A stretch of DNA of 49,941 bases from Candidatus Blautia intestinipullorum (GCA_019120475.1 DWVA01000175.1:1-49941), one strand, 5' to 3'. Positions 17,084-45,480 are shown, counted from the first letter of the stretch. Made by a program: numbers and translations. Notes: generated by a model from the letters alone, not told the origin.

Positions 17084-17138
17084 AATGTCAACCATATAAA
17101 ATAAATAAGTTGACAATTGCGGGCGCATATGTTATTCT
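17084..17138 (+). promoter_or_regulatory. BirA operator overlapping a SigA promoter
   Basis: aaTGTCAAC-N16-GTTGACAat fits the BirA box wwTGTtAAC-N15/16-GTTaACAww; right half contains the -35 TTGACA, with TATTCT 17 nt downstream; precedes bioB-bioY. Confidence 0.85.
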
Positions 17139-17163
17139 TTGGCCATTGGAGGCGAAAGGATCA

Positions 17164-17939
17164 ATGTATAATTTACAGGCAGATAAAAATTCTATAGAGA
17201 AACTGACGGAAAAAATCCTTGACGGATACCGTATGGGGCGGAAGGATGATTTTGGGGTTCTTCTGACCGCCCCGCTGGAGGCCGTATGTGAAGGAGCAGA
17301 CGCCATCCGTCGGAAATTCTGCGGGAATAAGGCGGATCTGTGCACCATTGTCAACGGCCGCAGCGGACGCTGCAGTGAAGACTGCCGTTTCTGCGCCCAG
17401 TCCTGCCGGTATCCTACCAGCGCACGGGAGTATCCTTTTCTTGATCCGGGGGAAATCCTTGCGGAAGGGAAGCGAAACGAGGCTGCCGGTGTGCACCGTT
17501 ATTCCATTGTGACTTCAGGACGCGGGATCCATGGGGAGGAACTGGAAAAAGCGCTGGCCGCCTACCGGCTTCTCCGCCGGGAAACAGGGCTGAGATTATG
17601 CGCTTCCCACGGACTACAGACAACGGAAGAATTCCGGAGACTGAAAGAAGCAGGCGCGGAGCGGTATCACTGTAACCTGGAGGCGTCAGAAAGATACTTT
17701 CCCCAGGTATGCACCACCCATACGTTTGAGGATAAAGTGGAAAATATCAGACGGGCACAGGAGGCCGGCCTGGAAGTCTGTTCCGGAGGGATCCTGGGCG
17801 CGGGCAGTTTCCCCGGGGCGGGGCAGAACTGTTCCGGGCGGGAGCGAATTCTGCCATCACGGGCGATATGCTGACCACTACGGGGACAGGTATTGCGGAA
17901 GATATAAAAATGCTGGAGCAGCTTGGCTACGAGCTGTGA
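17164..17939 (+). pseudogene. bioB: Biotin synthase with a frameshifting internal deletion
   Basis: CSEDCRFC radical-SAM motif, YHCNLE and VCSGGILG; the C-terminus (GRGQ...GANSAITGDMLTTTG...LGYEL*) continues in another frame from ~17796. Confidence 0.85.
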
Positions 17940-17962
17940 GCAGAAAGAAAGGAAAGAGTAAA

Positions 17963-18523
17963 ATGTACGAGACTGCAACAAATATAAATGAGGGCAGGAA
18001 GAGCAGGATTTATATTCTGTGCGTAACTGCCGTGATGACGGCGGTGACCTGTGTTCTGGCGCCTTTTTCCATTCCCATCGGACCGGTGCCCATTTCCCTT
18101 ACCAATCTGGTGATCTATATTTCCCTGTATCTTCTTGGGTGGAAGATGGCTACAGTAAGTTATATAGTATATATCCTCATCGGCCTGGCAGGACTGCCTG
18201 TGTTTTCCGGATTTTCCGGCGGTCCGGCAAAACTGGCCGGACCTACCGGAGGCTATATCGTTGGATTTATTCCCATGGCAATCATCGCCGGACTGACGAT
18301 CCGTTATTTTAAAAACCGGTTTGTTCAGTTTGTGGGAATGGTTGTGGGAACGGCTGTCTGCTATGTTTTTGGAACCGCCTGGTTCTGCGTGCTGATGGAT
18401 TCCACCGTGGCAGCCGCGCTGAGTACCTGCGTGATTCCCTTTATTCCGGGAGATATCCTGAAAATGATTGCGGCTCTGGCGGTAGGGCCTGCTGTAAAAA
18501 AATCCTTGAAATCTGCTTTTTAA
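17963..18523 (+). CDS. bioY: Biotin ECF S-component BioY
   Basis: PVPISL, GLPVFSGFSGG, GPTGGYIVGF, PFIPGDILK; downstream of the BirA box. Confidence 0.93.
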   Translation: MYETATNINEGRKSRIYILCVTAVMTAVTCVLAPFSIPIGPVPISLTNLVIYISLYLLGWKMATVSYIVYILIGLAGLPVFSGFSGGPAKLAGPTGGYIVGFIPMAIIAGLTIRYFKNRFVQFVGMVVGTAVCYVFGTAWFCVLMDSTVAAALSTCVIPFIPGDILKMIAALAVGPAVKKSLKSAF

Positions 18524-23287: not shown

Positions 23288-23794
23288 ATGGACAGGAAAG
23301 AATTCGGGAATCTGATCCTGGAGAATGAACGGCAGCTTTACCGGATCGCGAAATCCATTCTGAGAAGCGACGAGGACTGTGCGGACGCAGCCCAGGAGAC
23401 GGTGATGAAAGCGTTCGAGAAGCTACATACCCTGCGCGACGACAGATATGCGAAGACCTGGCTGATTCGGATCCTTATCAACGAGTGCTTCCGTATAGCA
23501 GATAAACAGAAACGGGAGCGGATGCTGGCAGATAAGGTAAAAAGCTGTGAAGAACAGGCGCATAAAGAACAGACGCCGGGAAATGTCCGGGAGGAAGAGT
23601 ACAGTGAACTTTATCAGGCGCTGGCGCAGCTGCCGCGGGAATTCCGCGTTATACTGGAACTTTATCATCTTGAAGAGTTTTCCGTAAAAGAAATATCGGA
23701 ACTTATGGGAATCCCGGAAGGCACGGTGAAAAGCCGGCTGGGAAGAGGGCGGGAAAAACTGAAACAGCGTTTATGTCAGAAGGAGGGGAAATAA
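23288..23794 (+). CDS. ECF RNA polymerase sigma factor (SigV-like)
   Basis: LYRIAKSIL, DAAQET, KTWLIRILINEC, EISELMGIPEGTVKSRL.R. Confidence 0.92.
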   Translation: MDRKEFGNLILENERQLYRIAKSILRSDEDCADAAQETVMKAFEKLHTLRDDRYAKTWLIRILINECFRIADKQKRERMLADKVKSCEEQAHKEQTPGNVREEEYSELYQALAQLPREFRVILELYHLEEFSVKEISELMGIPEGTVKSRLGRGREKLKQRLCQKEGK

Positions 23795-24924
23795 TGGATA
23801 AGAAAATCTGGGAAAATCAGTATCCGAAAATGCCGGAACTCTTCCATCTGGCAGTAGAACAGGCGGTGAACAGAGCGGTCGGGAACGAAACAGTATACAC
23901 CGGTCAGGGAACTGTGGAGAGGGAACGCTCCGACCAGAATATCCGTGGAGCCGCATCCTTAAATAAAAGGAAAAAATGGCGTCTGCTCATTCTTGCGGCG
24001 GTTCTCTGCGGCGGCCTGATATCTGCGGCGGCAGTTTCCGGACGGAAACCGGTGAGGACAGCGGAAGTGGATTTTCAGGAAAAACTGGGACTTGGAGAAA
24101 GGTCAGATCTTGAGGAAGTCTGGTTCGGAGACGTTGAGGTGAGCATAGCGGAAGAACCCCGATATGTAAATGAACTGCATCCGGAAATACTGGAGGATAT
24201 GAAAGACCTGAAAACAGACGGGCCGCTGATCACCATAGACCGGATAATGTACGACGGCCTTCAGCTTGCGGTATGCGCCTATCCCACAGAGGAGATAGAA
24301 GGATATACGATAGAATCCTGGTCCATGATTGTCAACGGGCAGAAGACCGGCCCAAATGAGATGGACGACAACATGGGAAAGCAGGATTACTTTATCTTTA
24401 CCGCGCAGCTTTATGATATGGAGCCCGCGGATCAGATGGAGGTTGTTCTTCCGCTGAGTGTATACAGAGATAATGAACGATACGAAAACCAGGAACTTCT
24501 TTTTACTGTAGAAGGAAAGGCGGCGGAACAGATCCCGGATCAGGAGTTTGATCTGGAGAGCTGCACGGTGAAGCTGACGGAAATGCGCAGGACACTGACG
24601 GCTTTTGCCGGAAGGATCCAGATCGAAAGGACGCCGGAACAGCAGAATACCTGTGAAGGAGAAGACAGAGAGATCGTGTCCATGGCCCTGGAAAGTGCAG
24701 ACGGAAGGCGGTGGCAGGATCTTCCATTAAGAGAAGATGTAACAACACTCTCAGCAGATGAAAATCATGAGGAAGGATATTTTTACTATGAGATCCCTGA
24801 AGACGGACAGACACAGGTGAATCTGCAGCTGATGAGCCGTCTTAAAAGCGAGAGATGGGAGAAGTGGGATTCCTCCGATCCGGCCAATCGGTACGGAGAA
24901 GTCCTGACTGTTGATCTGCAGTGA
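23794..24924 (+). CDS. Putative membrane-anchored anti-sigma factor
   Basis: TAATG translational coupling to the sigma gene, short cytoplasmic N-terminus, one TM helix, large acidic extracytoplasmic part. Confidence 0.7.
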   Translation: MDKKIWENQYPKMPELFHLAVEQAVNRAVGNETVYTGQGTVERERSDQNIRGAASLNKRKKWRLLILAAVLCGGLISAAAVSGRKPVRTAEVDFQEKLGLGERSDLEEVWFGDVEVSIAEEPRYVNELHPEILEDMKDLKTDGPLITIDRIMYDGLQLAVCAYPTEEIEGYTIESWSMIVNGQKTGPNEMDDNMGKQDYFIFTAQLYDMEPADQMEVVLPLSVYRDNERYENQELLFTVEGKAAEQIPDQEFDLESCTVKLTEMRRTLTAFAGRIQIERTPEQQNTCEGEDREIVSMALESADGRRWQDLPLREDVTTLSADENHEEGYFYYEIPEDGQTQVNLQLMSRLKSERWEKWDSSDPANRYGEVLTVDLQ

Positions 24925-33555: not shown

Positions 33556-35304
33556 ATGGAAGACCAGAAAATGGATAATCTTCTGAATCTGGCGATAGAC
33601 TCCACGGAACGTGAGAGGCTGAAGTCGGGGAATCTGAACGTAGGATATACAGAAGAAACAAGAATGTGGGATATTGTGATAAAATACAGCGGAGAGATCG
33701 GGGCGCTGCTGGGAGAATGTGTGCAGGCAGCGCCTCTTCTGGGAGGATATGCGGTGGTAACTTTATCCGAGGCGCAGTTGGAAAGCTTTGTGTCGCAGCC
33801 CCAGATCGAGTTTGCGGAGATGCCGAAACGTCTCTATTTTCAGGTGGATCAGGGAGCGGAAGCAGGCTGTATCCGTTCGGTGCAGAGAGAGATGAACGGA
33901 GAGGCGGGGCTGTCCGGAGAGGGAGTGCTGATCGGGGTTGTGGATTCCGGAGTGGATTATCGTCATCCGGATTTCCGGAGGGAGGACGGAACGAGCCGGA
34001 TCCTGAAGCTGTGGGATCAAAGCGCGCCGGAAGAGAAGGGACGTCCGCCGGAAGGTTATTTTCTGGGAGCGGAATATGACGGGGAAGAAATTAACCGCGC
34101 CCTGGAACTTCCGGAAGAGGAGGGCAGTCTTTTGGTACCCCAGAGGGATCTCAGCGGCCATGGGACTGCGGTTCTGGGTATCGCCGCAGGAAATGGGCGG
34201 GCCTCTGGAGGCGTTTACCGGGGAGTGGCCTACAAAAGTGACATGATCGTGGTAAAGCTGGGGATACCGAGGGAAAATTCTTTCCCCAGAACAACCGAAC
34301 TGATGCAGGGAGTGGATTATCTGGTAAGACAGGCACTTGCTATGGGAAAGCCGATGGCAATTAATCTGAGCTTTGGGAATAATTATGGTTCCCACAGGGG
34401 AGATTCGCTTCTGGAAACCTATCTCAGTAATGTGTCGGATGTGGGACGTACGGTAATCTGTACAGGTACGGGAAATAACGGAAGCGACAGCCTTCATACC
34501 CAGGGGCGCCTGGGACAGGGAGAGACTGTGGAGATAGAATTCAGTGTCAGCGCCTATGAATCAGTATTAAATGTACAGTTGTGGAAGGGGTATACAGATG
34601 AGATGGAAATCTATCTGGAAGCCCCGTGGGGGCAGACGGCGGGACCTTTGTCCGAACAGCTCGGCGTTCAGAGATATATACTGGGAAATACGGAAATCCT
34701 GATTTATTACGGAAAACCGGGGCCGTTCCAGGTGACTCAGGAAATCTATTTTGATTTTATCCCACGGGAAACTTATATCGGAAGCGGGATATGGAAAATC
34801 CGTCTTCGGGGAAGAAGAATCAGAGAAGGCGGATTTTACCTGTGGATGCCGGGAGGCGGAGTGCTGAATCCGGGAACAGGATTTTATGTTCCGAAATCAG
34901 AAGAGACGCTGACGATCCCTTCTACCGCTGCAAAAGTGATCACAGCAGGCGCTTACGATTCCCGCCTGAATACCTTTGCGGATTTTTCCGGACAGGGCGG
35001 AGCGGGGCTGTCCTATCCCAAACCGGATCTGGCGGCGCCGGGAGTGGATATTACGGCTCCTGTACCCGGCGGAGGATACGGAAGTTTTACCGGAACTTCT
35101 TTCGCCGCGCCCTTTGTCACCGGGGCGGCGGCGCTTCTGATGGAGTGGGGGATCGTCCGGGAAAATGATCCGTTTCTCTGGGGAGAAAAGGTAAAGGCAT
35201 ATCTGAGGCGCGGCGCCCAGCCGTTGAGAGGGTTTGAGACATATCCAAACCCGGAGATCGGCTATGGGGTGCTGTGCGTGAAAGAGAGCATACCGAAAAT
35301 GTGA
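33556..35304 (+). CDS. S8 subtilisin-like protease, clostridial CspA/B/C (spore germination) type
   Basis: Intact triad VDSGVDY / GHGT / GTSFAAP, jelly-roll insertion, KPDLAAPG, C-terminal YPNPEIGYG. Confidence 0.88.
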   Translation: MEDQKMDNLLNLAIDSTERERLKSGNLNVGYTEETRMWDIVIKYSGEIGALLGECVQAAPLLGGYAVVTLSEAQLESFVSQPQIEFAEMPKRLYFQVDQGAEAGCIRSVQREMNGEAGLSGEGVLIGVVDSGVDYRHPDFRREDGTSRILKLWDQSAPEEKGRPPEGYFLGAEYDGEEINRALELPEEEGSLLVPQRDLSGHGTAVLGIAAGNGRASGGVYRGVAYKSDMIVVKLGIPRENSFPRTTELMQGVDYLVRQALAMGKPMAINLSFGNNYGSHRGDSLLETYLSNVSDVGRTVICTGTGNNGSDSLHTQGRLGQGETVEIEFSVSAYESVLNVQLWKGYTDEMEIYLEAPWGQTAGPLSEQLGVQRYILGNTEILIYYGKPGPFQVTQEIYFDFIPRETYIGSGIWKIRLRGRRIREGGFYLWMPGGGVLNPGTGFYVPKSEETLTIPSTAAKVITAGAYDSRLNTFADFSGQGGAGLSYPKPDLAAPGVDITAPVPGGGYGSFTGTSFAAPFVTGAAALLMEWGIVRENDPFLWGEKVKAYLRRGAQPLRGFETYPNPEIGYGVLCVKESIPKM

Positions 35305-35425
35305 AAAAAGAACGAACTTTCGCCCCTCTTTCTTGTAATTCCACAAAGAGAGTGCTACTCTTTTTAAGAGAATGTTACTGATTTTATAAAATTGTGTTAC
35401 AAAAGAGATCGGGGGAGAACGGCAG

Positions 35426-36439
35426 ATGATAATAAAGGACTCGGAAAACAAGGTTCACCGCTACAGCAATAAAACCAACTGGAAATCGAAACGCAGAAAT
35501 GAGATACTGAGACAGATCTTTCCAATGGCCGCTGTAGCAGCGGCTGCTGTGATCCTGGTCGCCCTGTCTTTTGTTCAAAAAAAAGAAACTGGCGAAACCA
35601 GCGCGGAACCCGCCATAGAATCAGAGACGGCTGAGGTGACAGAAGCACCGGAAGAACTGGTGGAAGAGCCTTTTGTAAATATTCTTGATAAAAACAATTA
35701 TGAGCTTTCTGTAACCTGGGACGGAGCAGTAAAAAAAGACGACTGGGAAGCGGTTCAGGCGGACCTGGAACAGGAAATCTCTGTGGTGGAGACAGCGGGG
35801 TATTCTGTGGCTTTTCTGCTGTATGATCTGGAAACAGGAGGAGGCATCAGCTATCACCCGGATGTGAAATATTACAGCGCCAGCGCTATCAAGGCTCCGT
35901 ACGTGGCATGGATGGTGCAGGCATATCCGGAAACAGCGGAAGAGTTTTATACGGAAATTGAAAACGCCATTGTCTGGTCCAGTAATGAAGATTATTTTAC
36001 CTTGATCAATAATTTCGGAAAAACAGAGTTTAATGACTGGGCAGCGGAAACGGCAGGCGAAGACGTATCGCTGTCGGAAGGCTCCTTCGGACCGATTGCC
36101 TGCAGGAATTTTACCAGGCTGTGGATAAATATTTACGACTATTTTACTTCTGGAAACGACACTGCGGAAATGATCCGCGATCTGTACAGCGGAACGGAGG
36201 AATCGGCTATTTACGAGACTCTTGGAACAAAATATACGGTATACTCGAAAGCCGGATGGTCTTTTGAGGGTGAGGACTCCTATTATACGGTGCAGAATGA
36301 CGCAGGGATCGTGATGAAGGGCTCCCATCCATATATTCTTACGATCTTAAGCGACGCATATGAGAAACTGGATCTTCTGGAATCGGTGGCAGAGGAGCTT
36401 GATATAGCTCATACAAAGCTGATAAGCCAGGAGAATTGA
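35426..36439 (+). CDS. Membrane-anchored serine hydrolase, class A beta-lactamase-like fold
   Basis: SxxK (SAIK), SxN (SSN), KAG, NDAGIV..PYILTIL; single N-terminal TM helix. Confidence 0.8.
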   Translation: MIIKDSENKVHRYSNKTNWKSKRRNEILRQIFPMAAVAAAAVILVALSFVQKKETGETSAEPAIESETAEVTEAPEELVEEPFVNILDKNNYELSVTWDGAVKKDDWEAVQADLEQEISVVETAGYSVAFLLYDLETGGGISYHPDVKYYSASAIKAPYVAWMVQAYPETAEEFYTEIENAIVWSSNEDYFTLINNFGKTEFNDWAAETAGEDVSLSEGSFGPIACRNFTRLWINIYDYFTSGNDTAEMIRDLYSGTEESAIYETLGTKYTVYSKAGWSFEGEDSYYTVQNDAGIVMKGSHPYILTILSDAYEKLDLLESVAEELDIAHTKLISQEN

Positions 36440-36463
36440 CAATTTTTTTTGAAAGGATCTTTC

Positions 36464-36520
36464 TGCCGGACGGCGCCGATGTCCATGACATGGCTCCATC
36501 CGGCAATTTGTCGTTTTTTG
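36464..36520 (+). terminator. Hairpin/terminator after the serine hydrolase gene
   Basis: TGCCGGA..TCCGGCA imperfect stem with a T-rich tail nearby. Confidence 0.5.
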
Positions 36521-36671: not shown

Positions 36672-36887
36672 ATGGCATTATCACTGGACAGCAAAATAAA
36701 GGATATATTAAGATCACCGGAGGGAAAAGCGGTTATGGAGAAATATGCTCCCGGTTCCACCAGCAATCCTTCTATGAAACTGGTCGGAGCGATGACATAT
36801 AGAAAGCTTTTGTCCTATCCGGAATCCGCAGATGTTGCAAAATTTGCGGATCAGATAGATGAAGATCTGAAAAAGTGTTCGAGATAA
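36672..36887 (+). CDS. Small (71 aa) helical protein of unknown function
   Basis: GGGAGG RBS; SLDSKIKDILRSPEGKAVMEKYAPG recalls C-terminal accessory domains of some glycoside hydrolases. Confidence 0.7.
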   Translation: MALSLDSKIKDILRSPEGKAVMEKYAPGSTSNPSMKLVGAMTYRKLLSYPESADVAKFADQIDEDLKKCSR

Positions 36888-36956: not shown

Positions 36957-38498
36957 CTATTTTTCCGAACCTTTCAGGATTTCCCGCAATTCCAGGGCCT
37001 TCATGATAATCTGCAGATGAAGCCTTTCGTTATAATCCTTCAGATCAATTCCAAGTTCCCGTTCAATTCTGTTGATCCTGTCTACCAGTGTGCTCCGGTG
37101 AATATACAGGACTTCCGCCGTACTGGTATAGTTCATATTTTCTTCCAGAAATACCTTTAAAGTTTCAAAATAGCTTACAGGAGAATGTTCGTCATGGCGA
37201 AACAGATTTTTCAGTCCGTTGGAATAGAACATTTCCACAGGCATGCCTCCGGTTGAATTTGTGATCATTTCCATCAGAGCGAAGCTGGAGAAGTAGAAAC
37301 GGGAAGAAGAACTCATAGTAAGCTGGCCGTTTTCCAGGGCAATCTCTGCCTGAAGGTAATGCATCCGGACGTCATACAGATTGGAAAAATCGTTGCTGAT
37401 CCCGGCATAAAGTTTCAAAGACTTCAGCATGGGATCCAGCCGCAGGTTTAACTGTTCCTGGTATTTTCCGTCTCTGTCATAGAGCGGCTTGAGATCAATG
37501 AACGCGGCTACAGACTGGTTATGAGGAAAAGCCGCGCAGCCTGGAAAATTTTTTTCAAAGAGACTGCAGATATAGCTGGCCGGAATCTGGGAATACCTTG
37601 TAATGATGTGAGCGCTGACGCAGACATAGCGGGTTTTCATCTGGACGGCCTGGAGCATGGATTTATGGATGGGACGTATCGGACGCTCTTCAATGATTTC
37701 TCTTAAAATCTGGCGGATCGTATTTCGTTCATTAGACAGGAGAGCGGGATTACGCTCCAGAGATTTCTCCAGAAGAGAGCCCAGATAAGCAGCAAGAGCC
37801 GTATCGCCGCTGTGGAAGGGCCGTCCGTCTCCGGACATGAAAAAACAGCCGGCATATTGTCCTGCTCTGTCAAAAAGATTCACAGCCAGAGAAAAGTCCC
37901 CGCCAAGGTCAAGCAGCATTGGCTCCCGGATATCTGTAGACATTTCACCGTAAGTCAGGAACTCCGCCAGGTCAGCCTCAGACAGAGAATCTCCGGTTCT
38001 GCCGGTGTTTCTGCTTCGGTCGGAACCATTTCTGTATCCGGCAGCCAGGATATGGAAGCTGGAGTCCAGAACACAAACGGAACGTTCCATATACACAGCG
38101 CTCAGTTCGGCGATTTTCTGGATGTCCGCGTCCTGCTGGAAGATTTCGAAAAGAGCGTCGTTCCATTGATCATAGTGATCAAAAATTTTCTGTATGCTTT
38201 GGTAGACAGAGAAAAAGTCTTTTCTTCCCTGAATGATGATCAGAGTGATCCTGTCGGTATAATATTTCATTCGGACAGGCTCTCCGATGCAGACCAGAAC
38301 GGCGCCTTTTTCAAGATATGGTCTGGATGGAAGATGTTCCGCTGTGGCAAGATACAGGTGCCCTTCCAGAAAACGGGTATCGTCGTCCATGTGAAATTCA
38401 GGCCGTCTCAGGGACAGGGAGTTTTCCCTTTCACCGTATATTTTTACAGAATAATCCTCTTTCAGTTTTTCATAAATGATATCCGCGTTTAATTTCAT
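36957..38498 (-). CDS. PucR/CdaR-family transcriptional regulator
   Basis: C-terminal ETLKVFLEENMNYTSTAEVLYIHRSTLVDRINRIE HTH; AGISNDF degenerate GGDEF-like region. Confidence 0.9.
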   Translation of the reverse strand: MKLNADIIYEKLKEDYSVKIYGERENSLSLRRPEFHMDDDTRFLEGHLYLATAEHLPSRPYLEKGAVLVCIGEPVRMKYYTDRITLIIIQGRKDFFSVYQSIQKIFDHYDQWNDALFEIFQQDADIQKIAELSAVYMERSVCVLDSSFHILAAGYRNGSDRSRNTGRTGDSLSEADLAEFLTYGEMSTDIREPMLLDLGGDFSLAVNLFDRAGQYAGCFFMSGDGRPFHSGDTALAAYLGSLLEKSLERNPALLSNERNTIRQILREIIEERPIRPIHKSMLQAVQMKTRYVCVSAHIITRYSQIPASYICSLFEKNFPGCAAFPHNQSVAAFIDLKPLYDRDGKYQEQLNLRLDPMLKSLKLYAGISNDFSNLYDVRMHYLQAEIALENGQLTMSSSSRFYFSSFALMEMITNSTGGMPVEMFYSNGLKNLFRHDEHSPVSYFETLKVFLEENMNYTSTAEVLYIHRSTLVDRINRIERELGIDLKDYNERLHLQIIMKALELREILKGSEK

Positions 38499-38747
38499 AA
38501 AGGAACCGTCTCCTTTCAGCAAGCGTTTCCATAACCGGTAATTTAATGGCTGCTTTTATTATAATTCTGATTTTAATTGATTTCAATGGATAATACCGGC
38601 CGTTATTCTGTAGGGAAAAAGTTTTGAAAAACCTCTGTTCTGCTTATTTCTCAAAAAAAATACTTTTTCTATAATAAAGACATCGGATCCCCTCTGAATA
38701 CTGCTTTAAAAACAAAAAAATCTGATTGACGGAAAGGGGTTTTTATT

Positions 38748-39662
38748 ATGGGTTATGACGCAAACGAGGCTATGCGGCAGATGATGGCAGGATATATCAA
38801 ACAGGCGCGGCCTCTTCAGGAAATGCTTTTTGTAGAGGGAAAGACGGCCATCGTCACCGGAGGAACATCGGGACTGGGATTTAATATTGCCCTTCGGCTG
38901 CTTCAGGGCGGCGCCAATGTGGTAGTTGCTTCCGGTTCCGAAAAGAAAGGAGAAACCGCCGTCTCTCTGTTTCGGATGGAAGGATACGGAGAAGACCGGG
39001 TGAAGTATTGTAAAACTGACGTTTCGCAGGAAGAGGATGTGATCCGTCTGGTGGAATTTACAGACAAGTCCTTTGGATCTGTGGATATTCTGGTAAATTC
39101 GGTAGGTATTTGGAACTATGCGCATATTTATCATATGGCGAAGGAGGATTTTGACCATATTATGGAGGTAAATGTAACCGGACTGTTCCTGTGCATCAAG
39201 CATGTTTCCAGATATATGATCGATCATAAGATCGCCGGAAAGATCACGGCGGTTTCCTCAAACTGCCCGTGGATGCCTTATCCGGTATTCGGCGGATATC
39301 CTCACTATGCGGCGTCTAAAGGAGCGGTAAACGCTTTGATCGTAGAAGCCGCGAAAGAATTAAAGAGGTACAATATTATGGTAAACGCCGTGGCTCCGGG
39401 CGGGATGGCTACCCCGGGCGCATCCAGTAATCTGACGGCGAAAAATCTGACGGAAGAACAGTCGGATGAATTTTATGACGAATTGATGGTATGGTCTATT
39501 GACAGTACGCAGACAGTAGATTCGGTTGCGATCGTAGCTTATATGCTGTCCACGGCAGTGTCAGATGGAATCACAGGAGAAGTGGTGGTGGCCGATGCGG
39601 GAGCATCTCACAACATTGTACATCACCAGGTTGCGATCGAAGCTTATCCTCCGGAAGAATAA
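38748..39662 (+). CDS. SDR-family oxidoreductase
   Basis: TGGTSGLG, DILVNSVG, YAASKG, VNAVAPG. Confidence 0.93.
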   Translation: MGYDANEAMRQMMAGYIKQARPLQEMLFVEGKTAIVTGGTSGLGFNIALRLLQGGANVVVASGSEKKGETAVSLFRMEGYGEDRVKYCKTDVSQEEDVIRLVEFTDKSFGSVDILVNSVGIWNYAHIYHMAKEDFDHIMEVNVTGLFLCIKHVSRYMIDHKIAGKITAVSSNCPWMPYPVFGGYPHYAASKGAVNALIVEAAKELKRYNIMVNAVAPGGMATPGASSNLTAKNLTEEQSDEFYDELMVWSIDSTQTVDSVAIVAYMLSTAVSDGITGEVVVADAGASHNIVHHQVAIEAYPPEE

Positions 39663-39724
39663 CAGGAAGACGTGCAGCCGGAGGACTGTGTTCCGTATAG
39701 ATAAAGCGAAAGGAATGAAGGAAA

Positions 39725-40963
39725 ATGAGTAAAAAAATAGATGAAAGACTGCCGCAGGACAGCGGAAAAGGATCTGGACTGAAGGAATACTATGCAATCA
39801 AATCTCCCTGGGAAAAAATGTACGGTTATCGTGACGCCATGCACTATTCAAACCGTTTTGAGCAGGTCATCGGAGCCGCCTGTATGCAGGCGTACCGGAT
39901 CATGATTCCGGATTACAGAGAGAGGGCGCAGCTGATGTGTGAAGACGCTCTGGCCCGCCTGGTTGCCACCAACCGGATGTATGGAGAGAACGGAGACGAT
40001 ATGAATAATATGCATCCCTTTATGTGCGGCCAGTTTGTAGGCGCTCTCATCGGAGATCAGGGAGACGATGCGCTTCTTATGTGCGGACGCTGCCAGGATT
40101 TTGGAACTTACCGCGCAGAAAAGGAGCTGGATGTCTGCGACTGGGATATTGTGGGCTCAGAACTTTGCCGAGCCACTACCATGTCTCTTCAGGGATCCGC
40201 CATCGGTTCGGCAGAGCGGCGCCGTCCGGGTCCGACAATGGAATTTTGCATGGTGGAGGCAAAAGGGTGCGGAGACAGACACTGCAGGATCGTAGCGGAA
40301 AACCGTGACAAATATCCGATGCCGGAGCATGAGCTCTGGGAAAGCTTCGGACCGGTAGCTACAGCGGATCAGATCAAGTACACAGAGGAAGAGGACTGTG
40401 TAAAGGAGTCCATGGTATTCAGAGAGGAATGTAATTATACCTTTACAAACGGCACTCATCTTGAGCAGGACTCCTCCAGCGCTAATATGGTAACTCTTTC
40501 CACCTCCGCGTCCCTCTACATTCTTCCGGCGATCAATGAAGCTGTGCGCAGAGGCATCGTCACCCGAAAGATGGCGGATCACATTCTTCACTGCGTCTGC
40601 GAGGCAGCCGGAAAAGCCATGTTCGGAGAGCGTTATGCCATTAAAGCGGCCCGGGACTGGCTGGGAGTTCCTCCGGAAATCGGTGAAGACGGCCGTGTTA
40701 TGGGCGGTCTGCTGGAAATGCAGCTTCAGTCAATTCTCTGCAAGTATGAGGTGGAAGCCTTTAACGAAAAAGAATGTATCTATGTGATCGACCGCTCCGG
40801 TCTGGAGATTACAGGATGCAAAGAGCTTCCTCAGGTACATGTGGATTTCTGGTACGGAATGGTAAAGACGCTGGTCAATGCCCAGTGGTCTTTGTGGGAA
40901 GAGGATTCTCCTGCAGGGAAACTTCGGATAAAGATTGCAAAGAAAATCGATAAATTCTGTTGA
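39725..40963 (+). CDS. Cys-rich protein of unknown function, probably tandem V4R/ATC-hydrolase-like domains
   Basis: 412-aa ORF with about 18 Cys; C-x9-C...EAKGCGDRHCRI pattern resembles V4R; fold call is inference. Confidence 0.7.
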   Translation: MSKKIDERLPQDSGKGSGLKEYYAIKSPWEKMYGYRDAMHYSNRFEQVIGAACMQAYRIMIPDYRERAQLMCEDALARLVATNRMYGENGDDMNNMHPFMCGQFVGALIGDQGDDALLMCGRCQDFGTYRAEKELDVCDWDIVGSELCRATTMSLQGSAIGSAERRRPGPTMEFCMVEAKGCGDRHCRIVAENRDKYPMPEHELWESFGPVATADQIKYTEEEDCVKESMVFREECNYTFTNGTHLEQDSSSANMVTLSTSASLYILPAINEAVRRGIVTRKMADHILHCVCEAAGKAMFGERYAIKAARDWLGVPPEIGEDGRVMGGLLEMQLQSILCKYEVEAFNEKECIYVIDRSGLEITGCKELPQVHVDFWYGMVKTLVNAQWSLWEEDSPAGKLRIKIAKKIDKFC

Positions 40964-40979
40964 CAGGAGGATAAAGCGC

Positions 40980-42002
40980 ATGTACAAAAATATATTTAAA
41001 TATGACGAAATGAAACGCTCGGAGCATATGGCTGTCCGCCGGACAGTAGGATGGTACTACTGGACGCATCAGCTGATCGAGATCAGCGGGCCGGATGTAG
41101 TCAGTCTTTTGGAATATCTGTATCCCAATGATATTGGAAATATTAAGGTGGGACGGGACCGTTACACTACGATGCTGGATGAGAACGGGGAAATTATTGA
41201 CGATGTAGTGATCATGAGGATGGCGGAAGACAGGTTCTGGATTTCTACCCTGTTTCTTACATACACAGACGACTGGATTTATTATCATTCTGAAGGGTAT
41301 GATGTGGACTGGAACGACATTACCGATCAGTGGGATATGTTTGCGGTACAGGGGCCAAGATCTAAGGAAATGATAAATTCCATTGCGGAAAAGCCGGTGG
41401 ATGAGTTGAAATTTTTCAGCCATGAACCGAATAAGATCGGAGAAATAGATGTGATGATCAACCGGGGCGGCTTTACAGGAGAAAAGTTCGGCTATGAGAT
41501 TTACTGCCGAAGGGAGGACACGGACGCGCTGGAAAAGATCCTCAGGGATACCGCACCGAAATTCGACGGGAAACAGGTGACGGAGTTCCAGGTGATGGCC
41601 TGGACGCTGCCTACAGAAAGCGGTTTTTATTACATGCGGGATCTGGCTCATACAAATCCTTTGGAGGTAGGGCTTGACGCGAATATTGACTGGGAGAAAG
41701 ATTTTATTGGAAAAGAAGCGCTCCTGAAGGTAAAGGAAAACGGGCCGGAAAAGGAAATGGTAGGCTTTGAGGTTCCGGAGGCGGATATTTATATCAGATC
41801 GAAGCAGTACGGAGGCCCGGGAGAGGCTGTGTATATTGACAGCGAAGAGGAAGAAGTAGGACGCGTGTCAAAGATGGTCTACTCTTATGTGAAAGAGGTG
41901 AATAACGGATACATCCTTGCGAAAAAAGGAAAACTCCGGGTAGGCGATCATATCAAAATACACGGATACGATGCAGTGATCACAGAGAAGAAATGGATAT
42001 GA
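40980..42002 (+). CDS. GcvT/LigM/DmdA-superfamily folate-dependent aminomethyl/methyltransferase-like protein
   Basis: EHMAVR, IEISGPD, YTTMLDENGEIIDD, AVQGPRS, RGGFTGE.GYEI, KDFIGKEAL; AGGAGG RBS; no gcvH/gcvP nearby. Confidence 0.88.
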   Translation: MYKNIFKYDEMKRSEHMAVRRTVGWYYWTHQLIEISGPDVVSLLEYLYPNDIGNIKVGRDRYTTMLDENGEIIDDVVIMRMAEDRFWISTLFLTYTDDWIYYHSEGYDVDWNDITDQWDMFAVQGPRSKEMINSIAEKPVDELKFFSHEPNKIGEIDVMINRGGFTGEKFGYEIYCRREDTDALEKILRDTAPKFDGKQVTEFQVMAWTLPTESGFYYMRDLAHTNPLEVGLDANIDWEKDFIGKEALLKVKENGPEKEMVGFEVPEADIYIRSKQYGGPGEAVYIDSEEEEVGRVSKMVYSYVKEVNNGYILAKKGKLRVGDHIKIHGYDAVITEKKWI

Positions 42003-42281
42003 CACATTATACTACGGATTGCGGACTCTTTGGAGTCCGTTTTCTGTTTTTACACGGAAGATTGTATTGCCTCCCTGTACGAGGCTGTCTTTTACCTGGG
42101 AAAGGAAAAAACAGAGACACAGAGCGCCGCAGGTTTACTTGCATCCCCTCCGCAAATATAGTATGATGGTAGAGACATCTCCAGTATTTAGAGACCTTTG
42201 TTTTGGAATACTGCGAGGTGGTTTCAGCAGAAAATTACGAGAGGAAGCAGACCGGGACAGCCCGGGCTGCGGGGGAGAGAT

Positions 42282-43031
42282 ATGTTTAAAGAAATTGGGG
42301 AAGAAAGAGCATTCAACGGAATACTTGAACAGATCATTGATAATATACATAAGGGAAATCTGAAGGCGGGAGACGCGCTTCCGGCGGAGAGGACAATGGC
42401 GGAAACCATGAAGGTATCCCGCTCGGCAGTCAGAGAAGCCCTTCGGGCGCTGGAACTTCTGGGGATCATTGAAGCGGTTCCCGGAGGAGGCAATTATGTT
42501 ACCAGCGATCTGGATACCTGGCTGATCGGACCTCTGACGATCCTTTTCCGGCTGAATAACGGCTATGTGCGCCAGAACCAGCAGCTTCGCGCTGCTTTGG
42601 AAAGGCAGAATGCGATTCTGGCGGCAAAGAAATGTACGCCTCTTGATGCGGCGGAGCTGTGGATGATCCTGGCCAGACTGAACGCGGCGGAGGATGAGAA
42701 GGACAGAGGAAGCCTTGACAAAGAACTTCACGCAAAGATCGGAAAGATCGCGGATAATCCTATGATCTACAGCGTACTTGCCGCAGCCGACCAGCTTACA
42801 GAAAATATAATTTCCGGAACCAGGGATTATATTATGAAAAAAAATCAGACTGCATCTGTGGTGGACGAACAGCATCACCGTCTGGTAGAGGCCATTATCA
42901 ACGGAGATACCGAGGCGGCGGAGAAATGTATGTCAGAGCATATGGATACAGTAGAAGAATATATGGAACAGATGCTGGAAGAAAATACAGACGGCGGACA
43001 GAGTATAGAAAAAATGACACAGAAGAAGTGA
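42282..43031 (+). CDS. GntR/FadR-family regulator
   Basis: LKAGDALPAER..VSRSAVREALRAL..G.GNYV wHTH plus FCD domain. Confidence 0.92.
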   Translation: MFKEIGEERAFNGILEQIIDNIHKGNLKAGDALPAERTMAETMKVSRSAVREALRALELLGIIEAVPGGGNYVTSDLDTWLIGPLTILFRLNNGYVRQNQQLRAALERQNAILAAKKCTPLDAAELWMILARLNAAEDEKDRGSLDKELHAKIGKIADNPMIYSVLAAADQLTENIISGTRDYIMKKNQTASVVDEQHHRLVEAIINGDTEAAEKCMSEHMDTVEEYMEQMLEENTDGGQSIEKMTQKK

Positions 43032-43060
43032 AAATAGAGAAAGAAAATGAACATAGGCCC

Positions 43061-43133
43061 TTGTACTTTGGCCAGACCAGTGGTACAATCAGTTTATAAA
43101 ATTGGTTGCACCAAACATATAACTGGTCGACCG
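43061..43133 (+). promoter_or_regulatory. Promoter with three FadR-type operators
   Basis: TTGTAC-17-TACAAT; TGGCCAGACCA, TGGTTGCACCA and TGGTCGACCG fit TGGT-Nx-ACCA. Confidence 0.75.
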
Positions 43134-43150
43134 GAAAGAAGGGCAAGATT

Positions 43151-44281
43151 ATGGGATACGTAACATGGTCATATGAGACCCTGGACCGTTTCTGCGGAGA
43201 TGTGTTCAGAGCGTTTGGATTCAGTGAAGAGGAAAGCCGCGAGATCAAGGATGTTCTTCTGACGGCAGATCTTTATGGCATTGAAAGCCACGGTATGCAG
43301 AGGATGGTCCGTTATCACAAGGGAATTGAGAAAGGAACGATTCATCCGGAAGCAAAACCGGAAATCGTATTTGAGACCCCGGTTTCAGCGGTGATTGACG
43401 GACATAATGGAATGGGACAGCTTATCAGTGTCTTTGCCATGAAAAAAGCTATTGAAAAAGCAAAAAAGACAGGGGTAGGCATTGTCAGCGTCCGTGAGTC
43501 AAATCATTTCGGGATTGCCGGGTATTATGCAAAAATGGCCTGCGATGAGGGACTTCTTGGAATGGCATGCACCAATTCAGAGGCAATCATGGTGCCCACA
43601 TTCGGGAAAAAAGCAATGCTTGGTTCCAACCCTATTGCTGTGGCTATGCCTGCAGAACCTTATCCGTTTTTCTTTGACTGCTCCACTACAGTAGTGACGA
43701 GGGGAAAACTGGAAATGTACAACAAAATGGGAAAACCTCTTCCTGATGGATGGGCTCTGGACAAAAACGGACATCCCACTACAGACGCTCCTGATGTTCT
43801 GGCGAATATTGTGGCCAAGAAAGGCGGCGGGATCATGCCGCTCGGAGGCAGCGAGGAAGTCAGCGGCAGCCACAAGGGATATGGATACGGTATGGTATGC
43901 GAACTGTTCAGTTCTATTCTGTCTATGGGCGTCACTTCTGATAAATGCTGTACATTCCCGGACAAGACAGGGATATGCCACGGCTTCATGGCTGTGAACC
44001 CGGCTGTTTTCGGCGATCCGGAAGCGATTAAAAAGCATTTTTCCGAGTATCTTGAAGCATTGCGCGAGAGTCCTAAGGCGGACGGCAAAGAACGTATTTA
44101 TACTCATGGAGAGAAGGAAGTCTTTGCGGAAAGAGAAAGAAGAGAGAAAGGTATTCCGGTAAATGACAACACAATGGTGGAGCTGGCCAATCTGTGCGGA
44201 TATCTGAAGCTTGATTTCCATAAATATTTTGAAGGATATGAACTTCCCAAGGACAGTAAGTTCTTTACGGGAAACTATTAA
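43151..44281 (+). CDS. Ldh_2 (ComC/AllD/YiaK-like) 2-hydroxyacid dehydrogenase, possibly malate dehydrogenase
   Basis: ADLYGIESHG, NHFGIAGYY, LGSNPIA, HKGYG. Confidence 0.88.
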   Translation: MGYVTWSYETLDRFCGDVFRAFGFSEEESREIKDVLLTADLYGIESHGMQRMVRYHKGIEKGTIHPEAKPEIVFETPVSAVIDGHNGMGQLISVFAMKKAIEKAKKTGVGIVSVRESNHFGIAGYYAKMACDEGLLGMACTNSEAIMVPTFGKKAMLGSNPIAVAMPAEPYPFFFDCSTTVVTRGKLEMYNKMGKPLPDGWALDKNGHPTTDAPDVLANIVAKKGGGIMPLGGSEEVSGSHKGYGYGMVCELFSSILSMGVTSDKCCTFPDKTGICHGFMAVNPAVFGDPEAIKKHFSEYLEALRESPKADGKERIYTHGEKEVFAERERREKGIPVNDNTMVELANLCGYLKLDFHKYFEGYELPKDSKFFTGNY

Positions 44282-44304
44282 AAAATCCCAAGGAGGATAT
44301 ACAA

Positions 44305-45480
44305 ATGGATTATGCAAAAGAATCATTAAGACTGCATGGTGAATGGAAAGGAAAAATCGAGGTGGTGACAAGAGTTCCGGTGGAAACAAAGGACGATCTG
44401 TCTCTTGCGTATACTCCCGGAGTCGCCCAGCCCTGTCTGGAGATCCAGAAGGACGTAAACAAATCCTACGAACTCACCAGAAGATGGAACATGTGCCTGG
44501 TAGTAACGGACGGTTCAGCCGTTCTTGGCCTGGGCGATATCGGACCGGAGGCAGGCATGCCGGTTATGGAAGGAAAATGCGTTCTCTTTAAAGCATTTGG
44601 AGATGTGGACGCTTTTCCGCTCTGTATCAAGAGTCATGATGTAGACGAGATCGTCAACACTATTTATATGATCTCCGGCTCCTTCGGCGGAGTGAACCTG
44701 GAGGATATTTCCGCTCCCAGATGCTTTGAGATTGAGAAAAAACTGAAGGAAAAATGTGATATCCCGATCTTCCACGACGATCAGCATGGAACCGCGATCA
44801 TTACTCTTGCAGGACTTACAAACGCTCTCCGTGTTGTAGGAAAGAAAAAAGAGGATGTCCGCATTGTTATGAACGGAGCCGGCGCAGCCGCAATCTCCAT
44901 CGCGCGGCTGCTTCTGAAGGCGGGATGCCGGAATATCACGCTGTGTGACAGAAAAGGCGCCATCTATGAAGGCCGTCAGGAGGGAATGAACCCTGTAAAG
45001 GAAGAGATGAGCAAGGTGACGAACCGTGAGAAAAAGGCGGGTTCCCTTGCAGATATGCTGGTAGGCGCAGACGTATTCATCGGCGTTTCCGCTCCGGGCG
45101 CAGTAACTACAGAGATGGTAAAAACCATGGCGAAAGACGCTGTGATCTTTGCCTGCGCGAATCCTACTCCGGAGATCTTTCCGGAGGACGCCAAAGCAGG
45201 CGGCGCAAAGGTGATCGCTACAGGAAGAAGCGATTTCCCGAATCAGATCAACAATGTACTGGCCTTTCCGGGAGTATTCCGCGGCGCTTTTGACGTAAGA
45301 GCAAAGGACATTAACGATGAGATGAAGATCGCCGCGTCAGAAGCTCTTGCAGGACTGATCACAGATGAAGAGCTTTCGGCGGATTATATCATACCGAAAG
45401 CATTTGATAAGCGAGTAGGACCGGCGGTGGCAAAAGCCGTTGCCGAGGCTGCCAGAAAAACAGGAGTTGCAAGATTATAA
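44305..45480 (+). CDS. NAD(P)-dependent malic enzyme (short YtsJ-type)
   Basis: [49 protein letters not shown]. Confidence 0.95.

What the first reader, a model, noticed from the sequence alone, without database searches (positions are those of the whole stretch)
36957..42002. Uncharacterised catabolic unit: PucR regulator / SDR / Cys-rich V4R-like protein / orphan GcvT-like enzyme
Seen: a divergent PucR-family regulator faces three co-oriented genes (SDR, a 412-aa Cys-rich unknown, a GcvT-fold protein). No gcvH, gcvP or flavin amine-oxidase partner is in the window, so this is not glycine cleavage or sarcosine oxidase. Known: stand-alone GcvT-fold enzymes (LigM, DesA, DmdA) are THF-dependent demethylases, and PucR/CdaR regulators activate catabolic genes. 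Inference: a corrinoid-independent route in a gut anaerobe that oxidises/reduces, cleaves and hands a C1 unit from a dietary or host small molecule to folate. I do not recognise this combination from any described pathway.
Basis: partly seen in the sequence, partly recalled or inferred. Interest (0 to 1): 0.75.

Follow-up and report, generated by a model that had tools for sequence, protein, structure and literature searches.

The report
Gut zinc-folate hydroxymethyl-stripping enzyme pair
A five-gene cassette kept together in many gut and rumen bacteria encodes a dehydrogenase and two proteins predicted to form a zinc-and-folate enzyme that likely strips a one-carbon hydroxymethyl group from an unidentified dietary molecule, which would be an undescribed way for gut microbes to alter such compounds and gain energy.

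Summary
The genes are real, and a fifth (71 aa, 36672-36887) was missed. The cassette recurs in Blautia, Oscillospiraceae, Erysipelotrichaceae, Mogibacterium and Coriobacteriia. The 412-aa orphan is directly followed by the GcvT-like gene in 102 of 102 copies. It folds as a tandem V4R protein, and only three of its 18 Cys (C138/C148/C187), plus D114 and E134, are invariant. It is predicted to bind the GcvT-like protein (score 0.91, best control 0.00). That protein keeps the folate-site acids, lacks GcvT and LigM catalytic motifs, and forms its own clade. folD/fchA/fhs lie in 23 of 80 loci, while metF is essentially absent, pointing to methylene-THF. The best clue: the sister clade of the cassette's SDR, and the small protein, recur beside divergent PanB-like hydroxymethyltransferases instead of V4R+GcvT (21 of 21 strong SDR hits in 136 genomes sit by one or the other). 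Best reading (0.55): the SDR oxidises a carbinol, the V4R-zinc/GcvT pair removes CH2OH by retro-aldol onto THF, and the carbon ends as formate plus ATP. Substrate and direction are untested. Ten literature searches found no description.

The parts
36672..36887 (+). 71-aa small helical protein, DUF1858/YtfE-N-terminal-like fold; conserved part of the cassette, role unknown (assembly factor is a guess)
   Evidence: ORF; in 63 of 81 loci; model pLDDT 83; best matches 2k5e Z 6.5 (rmsd 2.5, 63 aligned), 2fi0 Z 6.1, 2k53 Z 5.9, YtfE 5fnn Z 5.5 (middling Z); homologs beside PanB-like genes
36957..38498 (-). PucR/CdaR-type regulator, 513 aa, divergent from the operon
   Evidence: HTH_30 over cut-off; in 74 of 81 loci
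38558..38586 (-). sigma-70-like promoter match (11 of 12) upstream of the regulator
   Evidence: consensus match only (14 sites found, shuffles give 8.6 +/- 3.1)
38648..38675 (+). promoter-like site with a perfect TATAAT upstream of the operon
   Evidence: RNA-library contigs of two studies begin at 38689 and 38693 (weak hint)
38748..39662 (+). classical SDR (TGGTSGLG, YxxxK) of a subfamily tied to V4R/GcvT modules; sister clade tied to PanB-like modules
39725..40963 (+). 412-aa tandem V4R-fold protein; N-half carries invariant C138/C148/C187, D114, E134 (predicted zinc site); predicted partner of the GcvT-like protein
   Evidence: model pLDDT 93.7; DmpR 6iy8 Z 9.4 and PoxR 5fru Z 9.1 over residues 43-206; N-half vs C-half hhalign 56%, E 1e-4; conservation; complex
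40980..42002 (+). 340-aa GcvT-fold folate-binding subunit; keeps D74/D75 and E173, lacks the FDVSHM, VVNA and GARDT motifs of canonical GcvT
42021..42050 (+). intrinsic-terminator-like hairpin with T tract closing the operon

Best explanation
The cassette encodes a PucR-type regulator, an SDR and a V4R-fold protein predicted to pair with a GcvT-fold folate-binding protein, and it likely works as a tetrahydrofolate-dependent dehydroxymethylation unit on an unidentified, probably hydrophobic dietary molecule. Step 1 (inferred): the SDR oxidises a carbinol next to a carbon bearing CH2OH, giving a beta-hydroxy-carbonyl. Step 2 (inferred): a zinc held by C138/C148/C187 of the V4R subunit, with D114/E134 as acid/base, would drive a retro-aldol cleavage. 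Step 3 (binding predicted, chemistry inferred): the formaldehyde equivalent would pass to THF in the docked GcvT-fold subunit, giving 5,10-methylene-THF. Step 4 (linkage shown, flux inferred): FolD/FchA and Fhs would turn it into formate plus ATP, with FocA as exporter, and the one-carbon-shorter product would be excreted, sometimes after re-reduction by a second SDR. Shown here: gene content, co-occurrence, folds, residue conservation, trees and the interchange with PanB-like modules. The substrate is not determined. My lean, from weak hints, is a plant phenylpropanoid/lignan-type aryl-propanediol (about one in three), then a 3-hydroxy-4-hydroxymethyl triterpenoid or steroid (about one in five).
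For: (a) Pairing. The GcvT-like gene follows the V4R gene in 102 of 102 copies in 100 loci, a few fetched twice, while the SDR moves before or after the pair. Predicted complex: score 0.91 (runs 0.91, 0.84, 0.91), best of 3 controls 0.00; the mark was reached by 116 of 157 solved and 2 of 215 mismatched pairs (rough here: own alignments, zinc riding along); runs share at least 67% of contacts, partner pLDDT at least 85. The interface includes the conserved GcvT motifs 26-31, 91-94 and 201-206. (b) Methylene-level C1. folD/fchA/fhs occur in 23 of 80 loci in several lineages and gene orders, in the same run of genes in L272 and L273, with focA-, folT-, folC- and thyA-like genes nearby. MetF gives 1 marginal hit (E 8e-4) in 121 loci, whereas ligM lies in a ligM-metF-ligH operon (PMC11868366, passages). 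(c) Interchange. In a tree of 102 SDRs the window's clade (0.998) is sister to SDRs beside divergent PanB-like hydroxymethyltransferases (0.998), joint support 1.0; three other SDR clades also mix both module types. In 136 same-genus genomes, 18 of 18 hits to the window SDR lie by a V4R gene, and 21 of 21 hits to a PanB-side SDR lie by V4R (18) or PanB-like (3) genes. The small protein recurs in 5 PanB-like modules. PanB-like genes adjoin V4R modules in L045/L275 and L166 and occur in 4 of 23 V4R carriers vs 2 of 113 other genomes (odds ratio 11.7; kin are not independent). PanB catalyses THF-dependent aldol/retro-aldol hydroxymethyl transfer (established knowledge). (d) Precedent: TMAO demethylase joins a three-Cys zinc domain to a GcvT domain and releases formaldehyde (PMC12560246, passages).
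Against: No activity, metal or substrate was measured. The window's own locus has no folate genes, and the assembly shows fhs and metF but no folD/fchA (83% complete; folD found in 3 of 5 close genomes). 57 of 80 loci have no folD/fchA/fhs within the DNA held. The closest solved V4R domains (PoxR, DmpR, MopR) are phenol sensors, not enzymes, and their zinc is structural (recalled), so catalysis by the V4R subunit is an extrapolation. The window SDR and a PanB-side SDR are only 36% identical; shared ancestry need not mean shared chemistry. The PanB-like proteins are themselves uncharacterised, below the PanB cut-off (86.5 vs 207.55 bits), and lack the canonical acidic motifs. Folate genes do not tell direction. 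PMC12560246 (passages) argues that THF use by Tdm's GcvT domain may be vestigial and names R223 as a THF contact, a residue this protein also lacks. The E-value cut-offs were my choice, and at most 16-17 candidates per genome were scored.
Confidence: 0.55

Rival explanations
1. SesA/BrdA-like demethylenase: the GcvT-fold subunit itself moves the methylene of a methylenedioxy ring (lignans, alkaloids, pterocarpans) to THF, and the V4R protein is a phenol-binding substrate-presenting subunit with structural zinc.
For: It also yields methylene-THF, so the folD/fchA/fhs linkage and lack of metF fit. The V4R domain's best matches are phenol sensors. SesA and BrdA are GcvT-like and THF-dependent (PMC5547118, first quarter of text and passages). 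Some carrier genomes also hold LigM-like enzymes.
Against: BrdA works as a single purified protein (PMC5547118). This reading leaves the SDR, present in 79 of 81 loci, without a role, and does not explain why sister SDRs pair with PanB-like enzymes. SesA residues could not be compared because no SesA sequence was in hand.
Confidence: 0.14
2. Same chemistry, opposite direction: formate is taken up and reduced to methylene-THF, the pair adds a hydroxymethyl group to a ketone, and the SDR reduces it, as PanB plus ketopantoate reductase do in pantoate synthesis.
For: Fhs, FchA, FolD and FocA are reversible (established knowledge), and the PanB analogy comes from a biosynthetic enzyme.
Against: Divergent PucR-type regulators, patchy distribution (23 of 136 genomes in the genus, 2 of 301 in the family sample), several paralogous cassettes per genome (L071, L067/L166, G402) and esterase/MATE/MFS neighbours look like inducible biotransformation.
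Confidence: 0.1
3. Tdm-like or hydrolytic C1 release: the three-Cys metal site cleaves an N-methyl/N-oxide group or opens an N,S-, N,O- or O,O-methylene ring, and the GcvT subunit traps the formaldehyde.
For: Architectural parallel with TMAO demethylase (PMC12560246; PDB 9q59 hit). The protein-atlas search lists an ATC_hydrolase-bearing cluster at score 0.86 (28% of members; a lead only).
Against: The metal domain has a V4R fold, not DUF1989. Profile comparison with 17 ATC-hydrolase-family proteins gave 0.2% probability. No amine transporter recurs in the loci. The PanB interchange is unexplained.
Confidence: 0.12
4. LigM/DesA/DmdA-like THF-dependent O- or S-demethylase giving methyl-THF.
For: GcvT fold without GcvH/GcvP; NCBIfam weak matches.
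Against: Scores 52.5/580 (LigM), 65.7/800 (DesA), 118/410 (DmdA). Separate clade from LigM-like proteins of the same genomes. No Tyr in the segment matching LigM's AYPSNTLESG. No metF linkage.
Confidence: 0.05

Closest known systems
TMAO demethylase Tdm (DUF1989 zinc domain + GcvT domain), and GcvT-domain formaldehyde-capturing oxidases (dimethylglycine oxidase/dehydrogenase, sarcosine oxidase alpha)
   Same: A catalytic module releases a formaldehyde equivalent next to a GcvT-fold folate domain; three invariant Cys in the partner; GcvT domain without R223.
   Different: The partner has a V4R fold rather than DUF1989 or a flavoprotein; two genes rather than a fusion; an SDR is part of the unit; there is no sign of an amine substrate.
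PanB ketopantoate hydroxymethyltransferase with ketopantoate reductase
   Same: Logic of a reversible THF-linked hydroxymethyl transfer alpha to a carbonyl, coupled to a carbinol/ketone oxidoreductase; divergent PanB-like genes replace V4R+GcvT beside sister SDRs.
   Different: The window's enzymes are unrelated to PanB in fold; the PanB-like substitutes lack the canonical acidic motifs and fall below the PanB cut-off; the context looks catabolic.
SesA / BrdA methylenedioxy demethylenases; LigM / DesA / DmdA demethylases
   Same: Orphan GcvT fold using THF, independent of glycine cleavage.
   Different: Those act alone. This one is 340 aa, always paired with a V4R protein, far below the LigM/DesA/DmdA cut-offs, without the LigM tyrosine motif or metF.
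V4R phenol-sensing domains of PoxR / DmpR / MopR
   Same: Fold of residues 43-206 (Z 9.1-9.4) and a Cys/Glu motif near 148-187.
   Different: Tandem V4R with no ATPase or DNA-binding domain; an extra invariant Cys138 and acids D114/E134; encoded in an enzyme operon.

Membership tests
GcvT-fold (aminomethyltransferase folate-binding) superfamily | Pfam GCV_T over cut-off; conserved folate-site Asp and Glu | tested here: met
   147.9 bits vs 25.6; D74, D75, E173 invariant in 50 sequences and aligned to the DD and GFE motifs of 1woo
Canonical glycine-cleavage T protein | TIGR00528 / PRK00389 cut-off | tested here: not met
   135.9 vs 235.85; 151.9 vs 300
Canonical glycine-cleavage T protein | FDVSHM, VVNA and GARDT motifs; clade with gcvP-linked gcvT | tested here: not met
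   Replaced by YxxTH, (I/V)STL and xMAWTL; separate clade, support 0.955 vs 0.926
Canonical glycine-cleavage T protein | GcvH and GcvP in the genome | tested here: inconclusive
   Not found in the 83%-complete genome; GcvP over cut-off in 20 of 50 carrier genomes of unknown completeness
LigM / DesA O-demethylases | NCBIfam cut-offs; Tyr of the AYxxNTLESG motif (its catalytic role is recalled) | tested here: not met
   52.5/580 and 65.7/800; segment 200-213 has no Tyr
LigM / DesA O-demethylases | linked metF (methyl-THF product) | tested here: not met
   1 marginal hit in 121 loci
DmdA | PRK12486 cut-off | tested here: not met
   118 vs 410
SesA / BrdA demethylenases | SesA proton-donor residues H82, R100, R179, H225 (PMC5547118) and THF-dependent ring cleavage | not testable with these tools
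   No SesA or BrdA sequence was returned by any tool; activity needs the bench
TMAO demethylase (Tdm) | DUF1989 domain fused to GcvT; NCBIfam cut-off | tested here: not met
   108.4 vs 1100; the partner is a separate gene with a V4R fold
V4R / H-NOX / TRAPP-Bet3 fold | structural match over a whole domain | tested here: met
   6iy8 Z 9.4, rmsd 3.5, 148 aligned; 5fru Z 9.1, rmsd 3.6, 147 aligned; 2cfh Z 8.2; the only PDB sequence hit of the profile is PoxR, E 0.078; Foldseek gave no match at E 0.001 or better
V4R / H-NOX / TRAPP-Bet3 fold | bound zinc | not tested
ATC hydrolase (PF14196) | profile similarity | tested here: not met
   No Pfam hit at E 0.1; hhalign 0.2% for each half against 17 family members
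Classical SDR | TGxxxGxG and YxxxK, Pfam adh_short | tested here: met
   162.9 bits vs 26.6; motifs read from the translation; below the cut-off of each of the 25 best NCBIfam families shown
PucR/CdaR regulators | C-terminal HTH_30 after a GGDEF-like domain | tested here: met
   HTH_30 64.2 vs 27; GGDEF_2 19 vs 24.5, under cut-off
PanB (for the substitute genes in related loci) | Pfam Pantoate_transf; TIGR00222 cut-off; LVGDS, GDMPF and KxEG motifs | tested here: not met
   Pfam met (120-139 bits) but TIGR00222 86.5 vs 207.55; acidic motifs lost, GH(I/V)G and the later Glu kept

The most novel reading that the evidence does not exclude
A new enzyme class and pathway: a V4R-fold zinc retro-aldolase docked on a GcvT-fold folate subunit. 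It is one of two unrelated, interchangeable solutions (the other being PanB-like enzymes stripped of their canonical acidic motifs) by which gut anaerobes dehydroxymethylate dietary natural products, conserve the carbon as formate plus ATP, and release undescribed 'nor-' metabolites into the host.
Probability: 0.45. Interest if true: 0.88.

Novelty: new variant of a known kind. Interest (0 to 1): 0.74.

Why it matters
If right, it gives a catalytic role to a fold known mainly from sensors and trafficking proteins, and adds a C-C cleaving route to the short list of ways gut anaerobes harvest one-carbon units without corrinoids. It predicts a class of microbial metabolites (loss of CH2O after oxidation) from plant compounds in poultry, ruminant, rodent and human guts. 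It is directly testable: cultured carriers exist (records L012, Blautia schinkii DSM 10518, and L028, Fusibacillus kribbianus), the regulator gives a built-in inducer screen, and the expected mass shift is specific. It also flags a second uncharacterised family, the divergent PanB-like enzymes with their own GroEL paralog.

Tried and rejected
Fusion search: the V4R alignment against proteins of 773-2205 aa gave 0 hits among 6119 candidates (weak evidence of no fusion). ATC-hydrolase kinship, suggested by the Cys pattern, was not supported. Foldseek gave no match at E 0.001 or better. Plasmid search: no match. The small protein had no significant PDB sequence match (best E 0.048, treated as chance). 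The metagenome scan with a distant member gave only 1 locus (L187), so the contexts of the most distant relatives (P0141, P0145, P0173, P0209) remain unseen. Neighbourhood clustering found no recurring transporter, kinase or downstream catabolic enzyme, so no substrate could be named; sugar substrates such as apiose were set aside for that reason. Weak labels on accessory genes (coniferyl-alcohol-dehydrogenase-like 142/242, chloramphenicol-hydrolase-like 142/500) are below cut-off and used only as hints. The V4R-GcvT distance correlation (Spearman 0.82, 0 of 2000 permutations) is expected for any adjacent genes and is not counted as evidence of binding. RNA runs: stretches without cover (for example 35170-36471 in X1) and small-share rows were not used. 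Phylum and Coriobacteriia samples: 3 of 401 and 4 of 351 genomes. Ten paper searches listed nothing that describes this cassette. The library lacks most subscription papers, and I read no supplements. PMC13081902 (passages) proved irrelevant. Four look-ups of earlier findings returned nothing.
Full report
OBSERVATION. A terminator-like hairpin follows at 42021. A fifth gene of 71 aa (36672-36887) converges on the regulator and belongs to the unit. The orphan's closest relatives (97-98%) are in records titled Candidatus Blautia species, and RNA runs that hold the stretch include chicken-gut metatranscriptomes. The 83%-complete genome has no GcvH, no GcvP and no second GcvT hit. One RNA-library contig spans 38693-41264, and contigs of two studies start within 4 bases of each other just after the TATAAT box. 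This is a weak hint of expression; contigs do not show a single transcript, and RNA libraries can hold DNA.

CONSERVATION. The orphan has 501 homologs at E 0.001 or better. A genome scan found 150 relatives and kept the best 80, from Lachnospiraceae, Oscillospiraceae, Peptococcaceae, Erysipelotrichaceae, Anaerovoracaceae and Coriobacteriia. Among these 80 plus the window, GcvT-like is present in 81, SDR in 79, PucR in 74 and the small gene in 63; most misses are contig ends. With divergent subfamilies added, the GcvT-like gene directly follows the orphan in 102 of 102 copies in 100 loci, a few of which are the same stretch fetched twice, while the SDR changes position. The cassette is patchy: 23 of 136 genomes in the genus, 2 of 301 in a one-per-genus family sample, 3 of 401 in the phylum sample and 4 of 351 in the class around G345.

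THE ORPHAN. Its model is confident (pLDDT 93.7). Residues 43-206 match the V4R phenol-sensing domains of DmpR (Z 9.4, rmsd 3.5, 148 aligned) and PoxR (Z 9.1). The C-half appears to be a degenerate repeat (hhalign 56%, E 1e-4). Of 18 cysteines only C138, C148 and C187 are invariant in 99 of 99 sequences, together with D114 and E134. I read this as a three-Cys metal site with catalytic acids; that is inference, since no metal or geometry was measured. Kinship with ATC hydrolases was tested and not supported.

THE GcvT-LIKE PROTEIN. It keeps D74/D75 and E173, which align with the folate-site acids of Thermotoga GcvT (residue roles recalled). It lacks about 25 N-terminal residues and the FDVSHM, VVNA and GARDT motifs, and has no tyrosine where LigM has AYPSNTLESG. 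It is below the cut-offs for GcvT, DmdA, DesA, LigM and Tdm. In a 43-sequence tree, V4R-linked proteins form one clade (0.955), apart from gcvP-linked GcvT (0.926) and LigM-like proteins (1.0) of the same genomes. GcvP passes its cut-off in 20 of 50 carrier genomes.

THE PAIR. The two proteins, folded together with zinc, scored 0.91 (0.91, 0.84, 0.91) against a best control of 0.00. The mark was reached by 116 of 157 solved and 2 of 215 mismatched pairs (only roughly applicable here: own alignments, a ligand riding along). Runs share at least 67% of contacts and partner pLDDT is at least 85. The model supports binding but does not show it. My PDB searches returned no solved V4R-GcvT complex, so a pass from memory seems unlikely. 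The interface uses conserved GcvT motifs (26-31, 91-94, 201-206) and V4R residues 92-130 and 214-245.

WHICH ONE-CARBON UNIT. folD, fchA or fhs lie in 23 of 80 loci, upstream in some lineages and downstream in others, and in the same run of genes in two Coriobacteriia-class loci. focA-, folT-, folC- and thyA-like genes recur. MetF gives one marginal hit in 121 loci, whereas ligM lies in a ligM-metF-ligH operon because its product is methyl-THF (PMC11868366, passages). This points to methylene-THF. Against it: 57 of 80 loci, and the window itself, have no such neighbour, and the assembly lacks folD/fchA, though 3 of 5 close genomes have folD.

THE CLUE TO THE CHEMISTRY. A Mogibacterium record carries a second cassette in an island with three PanB-like hydroxymethyltransferases, many SDRs, folD, fchA, fhs, focA and formyl-THF cyclo-ligase. 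These divergent PanB-like proteins occur strongly in 14 of 64 carrier genomes (16 with weak hits), and in 4 of 23 carriers vs 2 of 113 other genomes of the genus (kin are not independent). They sit in their own modules with an SDR, in 5 cases the same small protein, and once a PucR of the same type. In a tree of 102 SDRs (183 reduced at 80% identity; 42 near V4R, 11 near PanB-like, 49 others, two of the 'others' being distance-rule artefacts inside the clade), the window's clade is sister to the PanB-side clade with support 1.0, and three further clades mix both module types. An unbiased check in 136 genomes agrees: 18 of 18 hits to the window SDR lie by a V4R gene, and 21 of 21 hits to a PanB-side SDR lie by V4R (18) or PanB-like (3) genes. 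The cut-offs were mine, and not every candidate SDR was scored. So one family of SDRs uses either a PanB-like enzyme or the V4R+GcvT pair as its partner. PanB moves a hydroxymethyl group between THF and the carbon alpha to a carbonyl (established knowledge), which suggests the pair does the same.

MECHANISM. Most likely (0.55), the SDR oxidises a carbinol, the V4R zinc site drives a retro-aldol loss of the neighbouring CH2OH, the GcvT subunit captures it as methylene-THF, and FolD/FchA/Fhs yield formate and ATP. No transporter or downstream catabolic gene recurs, which suggests a membrane-permeant substrate and an excreted one-carbon-shorter product. Hints for plant aromatics are weak: the phenol-sensor fold, accessory SDRs resembling coniferyl-alcohol dehydrogenase below cut-off, and LigM-like genes in some carriers. 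Sapogenins with a 3-hydroxy-4-hydroxymethyl motif fit the chemistry as well (my knowledge). Rivals: methylenedioxy cleavage as in SesA/BrdA (0.14; PMC5547118, first of four parts and passages); Tdm-like or hydrolytic C1 release (0.12; PMC12560246, passages, which also warns that THF use by such a domain may be vestigial); the reverse, biosynthetic direction (0.10); LigM-like demethylation (0.05).

KNOWN AND NEW. It works like Tdm and the GcvT-domain oxidases (a C1-releasing module beside a folate trap) and like PanB plus a reductase. It is a member of none of these by the tests run. Ten searches of the held library (listings and abstract starts only) showed no description of the cassette; subscription papers and supplements were not seen. 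Earlier findings of this scan returned nothing.

VERDICT. A real, conserved, apparently undescribed five-gene one-carbon-transfer cassette with a predicted V4R-GcvT heterodimer. It is a new variant of GcvT-coupled formaldehyde-capture systems, with a fair chance of being a new enzyme class. Interest 0.74.

Noticed in passing
L188-L201, L276, L277 (for example L191:7883-10602, L192:5849-10514): Divergent PanB-like genes travel with an SDR, a trigger-factor C-terminal-like protein (11 loci), a second GroEL (10 loci) and often a LuxR-type regulator: an uncharacterised family with its own chaperones.
   Followed up: partly
L166 and L200 (G343:C11:78000-117999), continuing L067: A roughly 50-kb island in a Mogibacterium record with two V4R/GcvT cassettes, four divergent and one weaker PanB-like gene, several SDRs and Zn-dehydrogenases, an esterase, a VOC protein and a full folate C1 set.
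   Followed up: partly
L157:5967-17071: An Atopobiaceae record has four LigM/DesA-like genes (444-458 aa; the two scanned score 176-243 bits, below cut-off) interleaved with three PucR-type regulators; similar genes in L159-L162. Candidate corrinoid-independent O-demethylases in gut anaerobes.
   Followed up: partly
L103:4914-12725: A distant V4R/GcvT subfamily is followed by two VOC-family genes, an acyl-CoA dehydrogenase and ETF subunits, suggesting a reductive step on the product.
   Followed up: no
L005 and L078: Two loci without PucR or the small gene have a LysR regulator, DASS transporters, an alkaline-phosphatase-superfamily protein and a VOC gene beside V4R/GcvT; perhaps a conjugated (sulfated) substrate.
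   Followed up: no
G000:C231:145-6588: The nearest PucR paralog in the window's genome sits amid what look like corrinoid methyltransferase genes (names recalled from the translations, not scanned).
   Followed up: no
window 42282-45480: GntR regulator, Ldh_2-family dehydrogenase and malic enzyme just downstream; seen only in the four closest Blautia loci, so treated as a separate unit.
   Followed up: partly
window 17110-18523: A short radical-SAM ORF overlaps a BioY ORF by about 150 bases; possibly a truncated biotin-synthase gene or a start-site artefact.
   Followed up: no
window 4205-5413 and 23773-24924: Two ORFs of 402 and 383 aa without a Pfam match at E 1e-8; the second follows an ECF-type sigma factor gene.
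   Followed up: no
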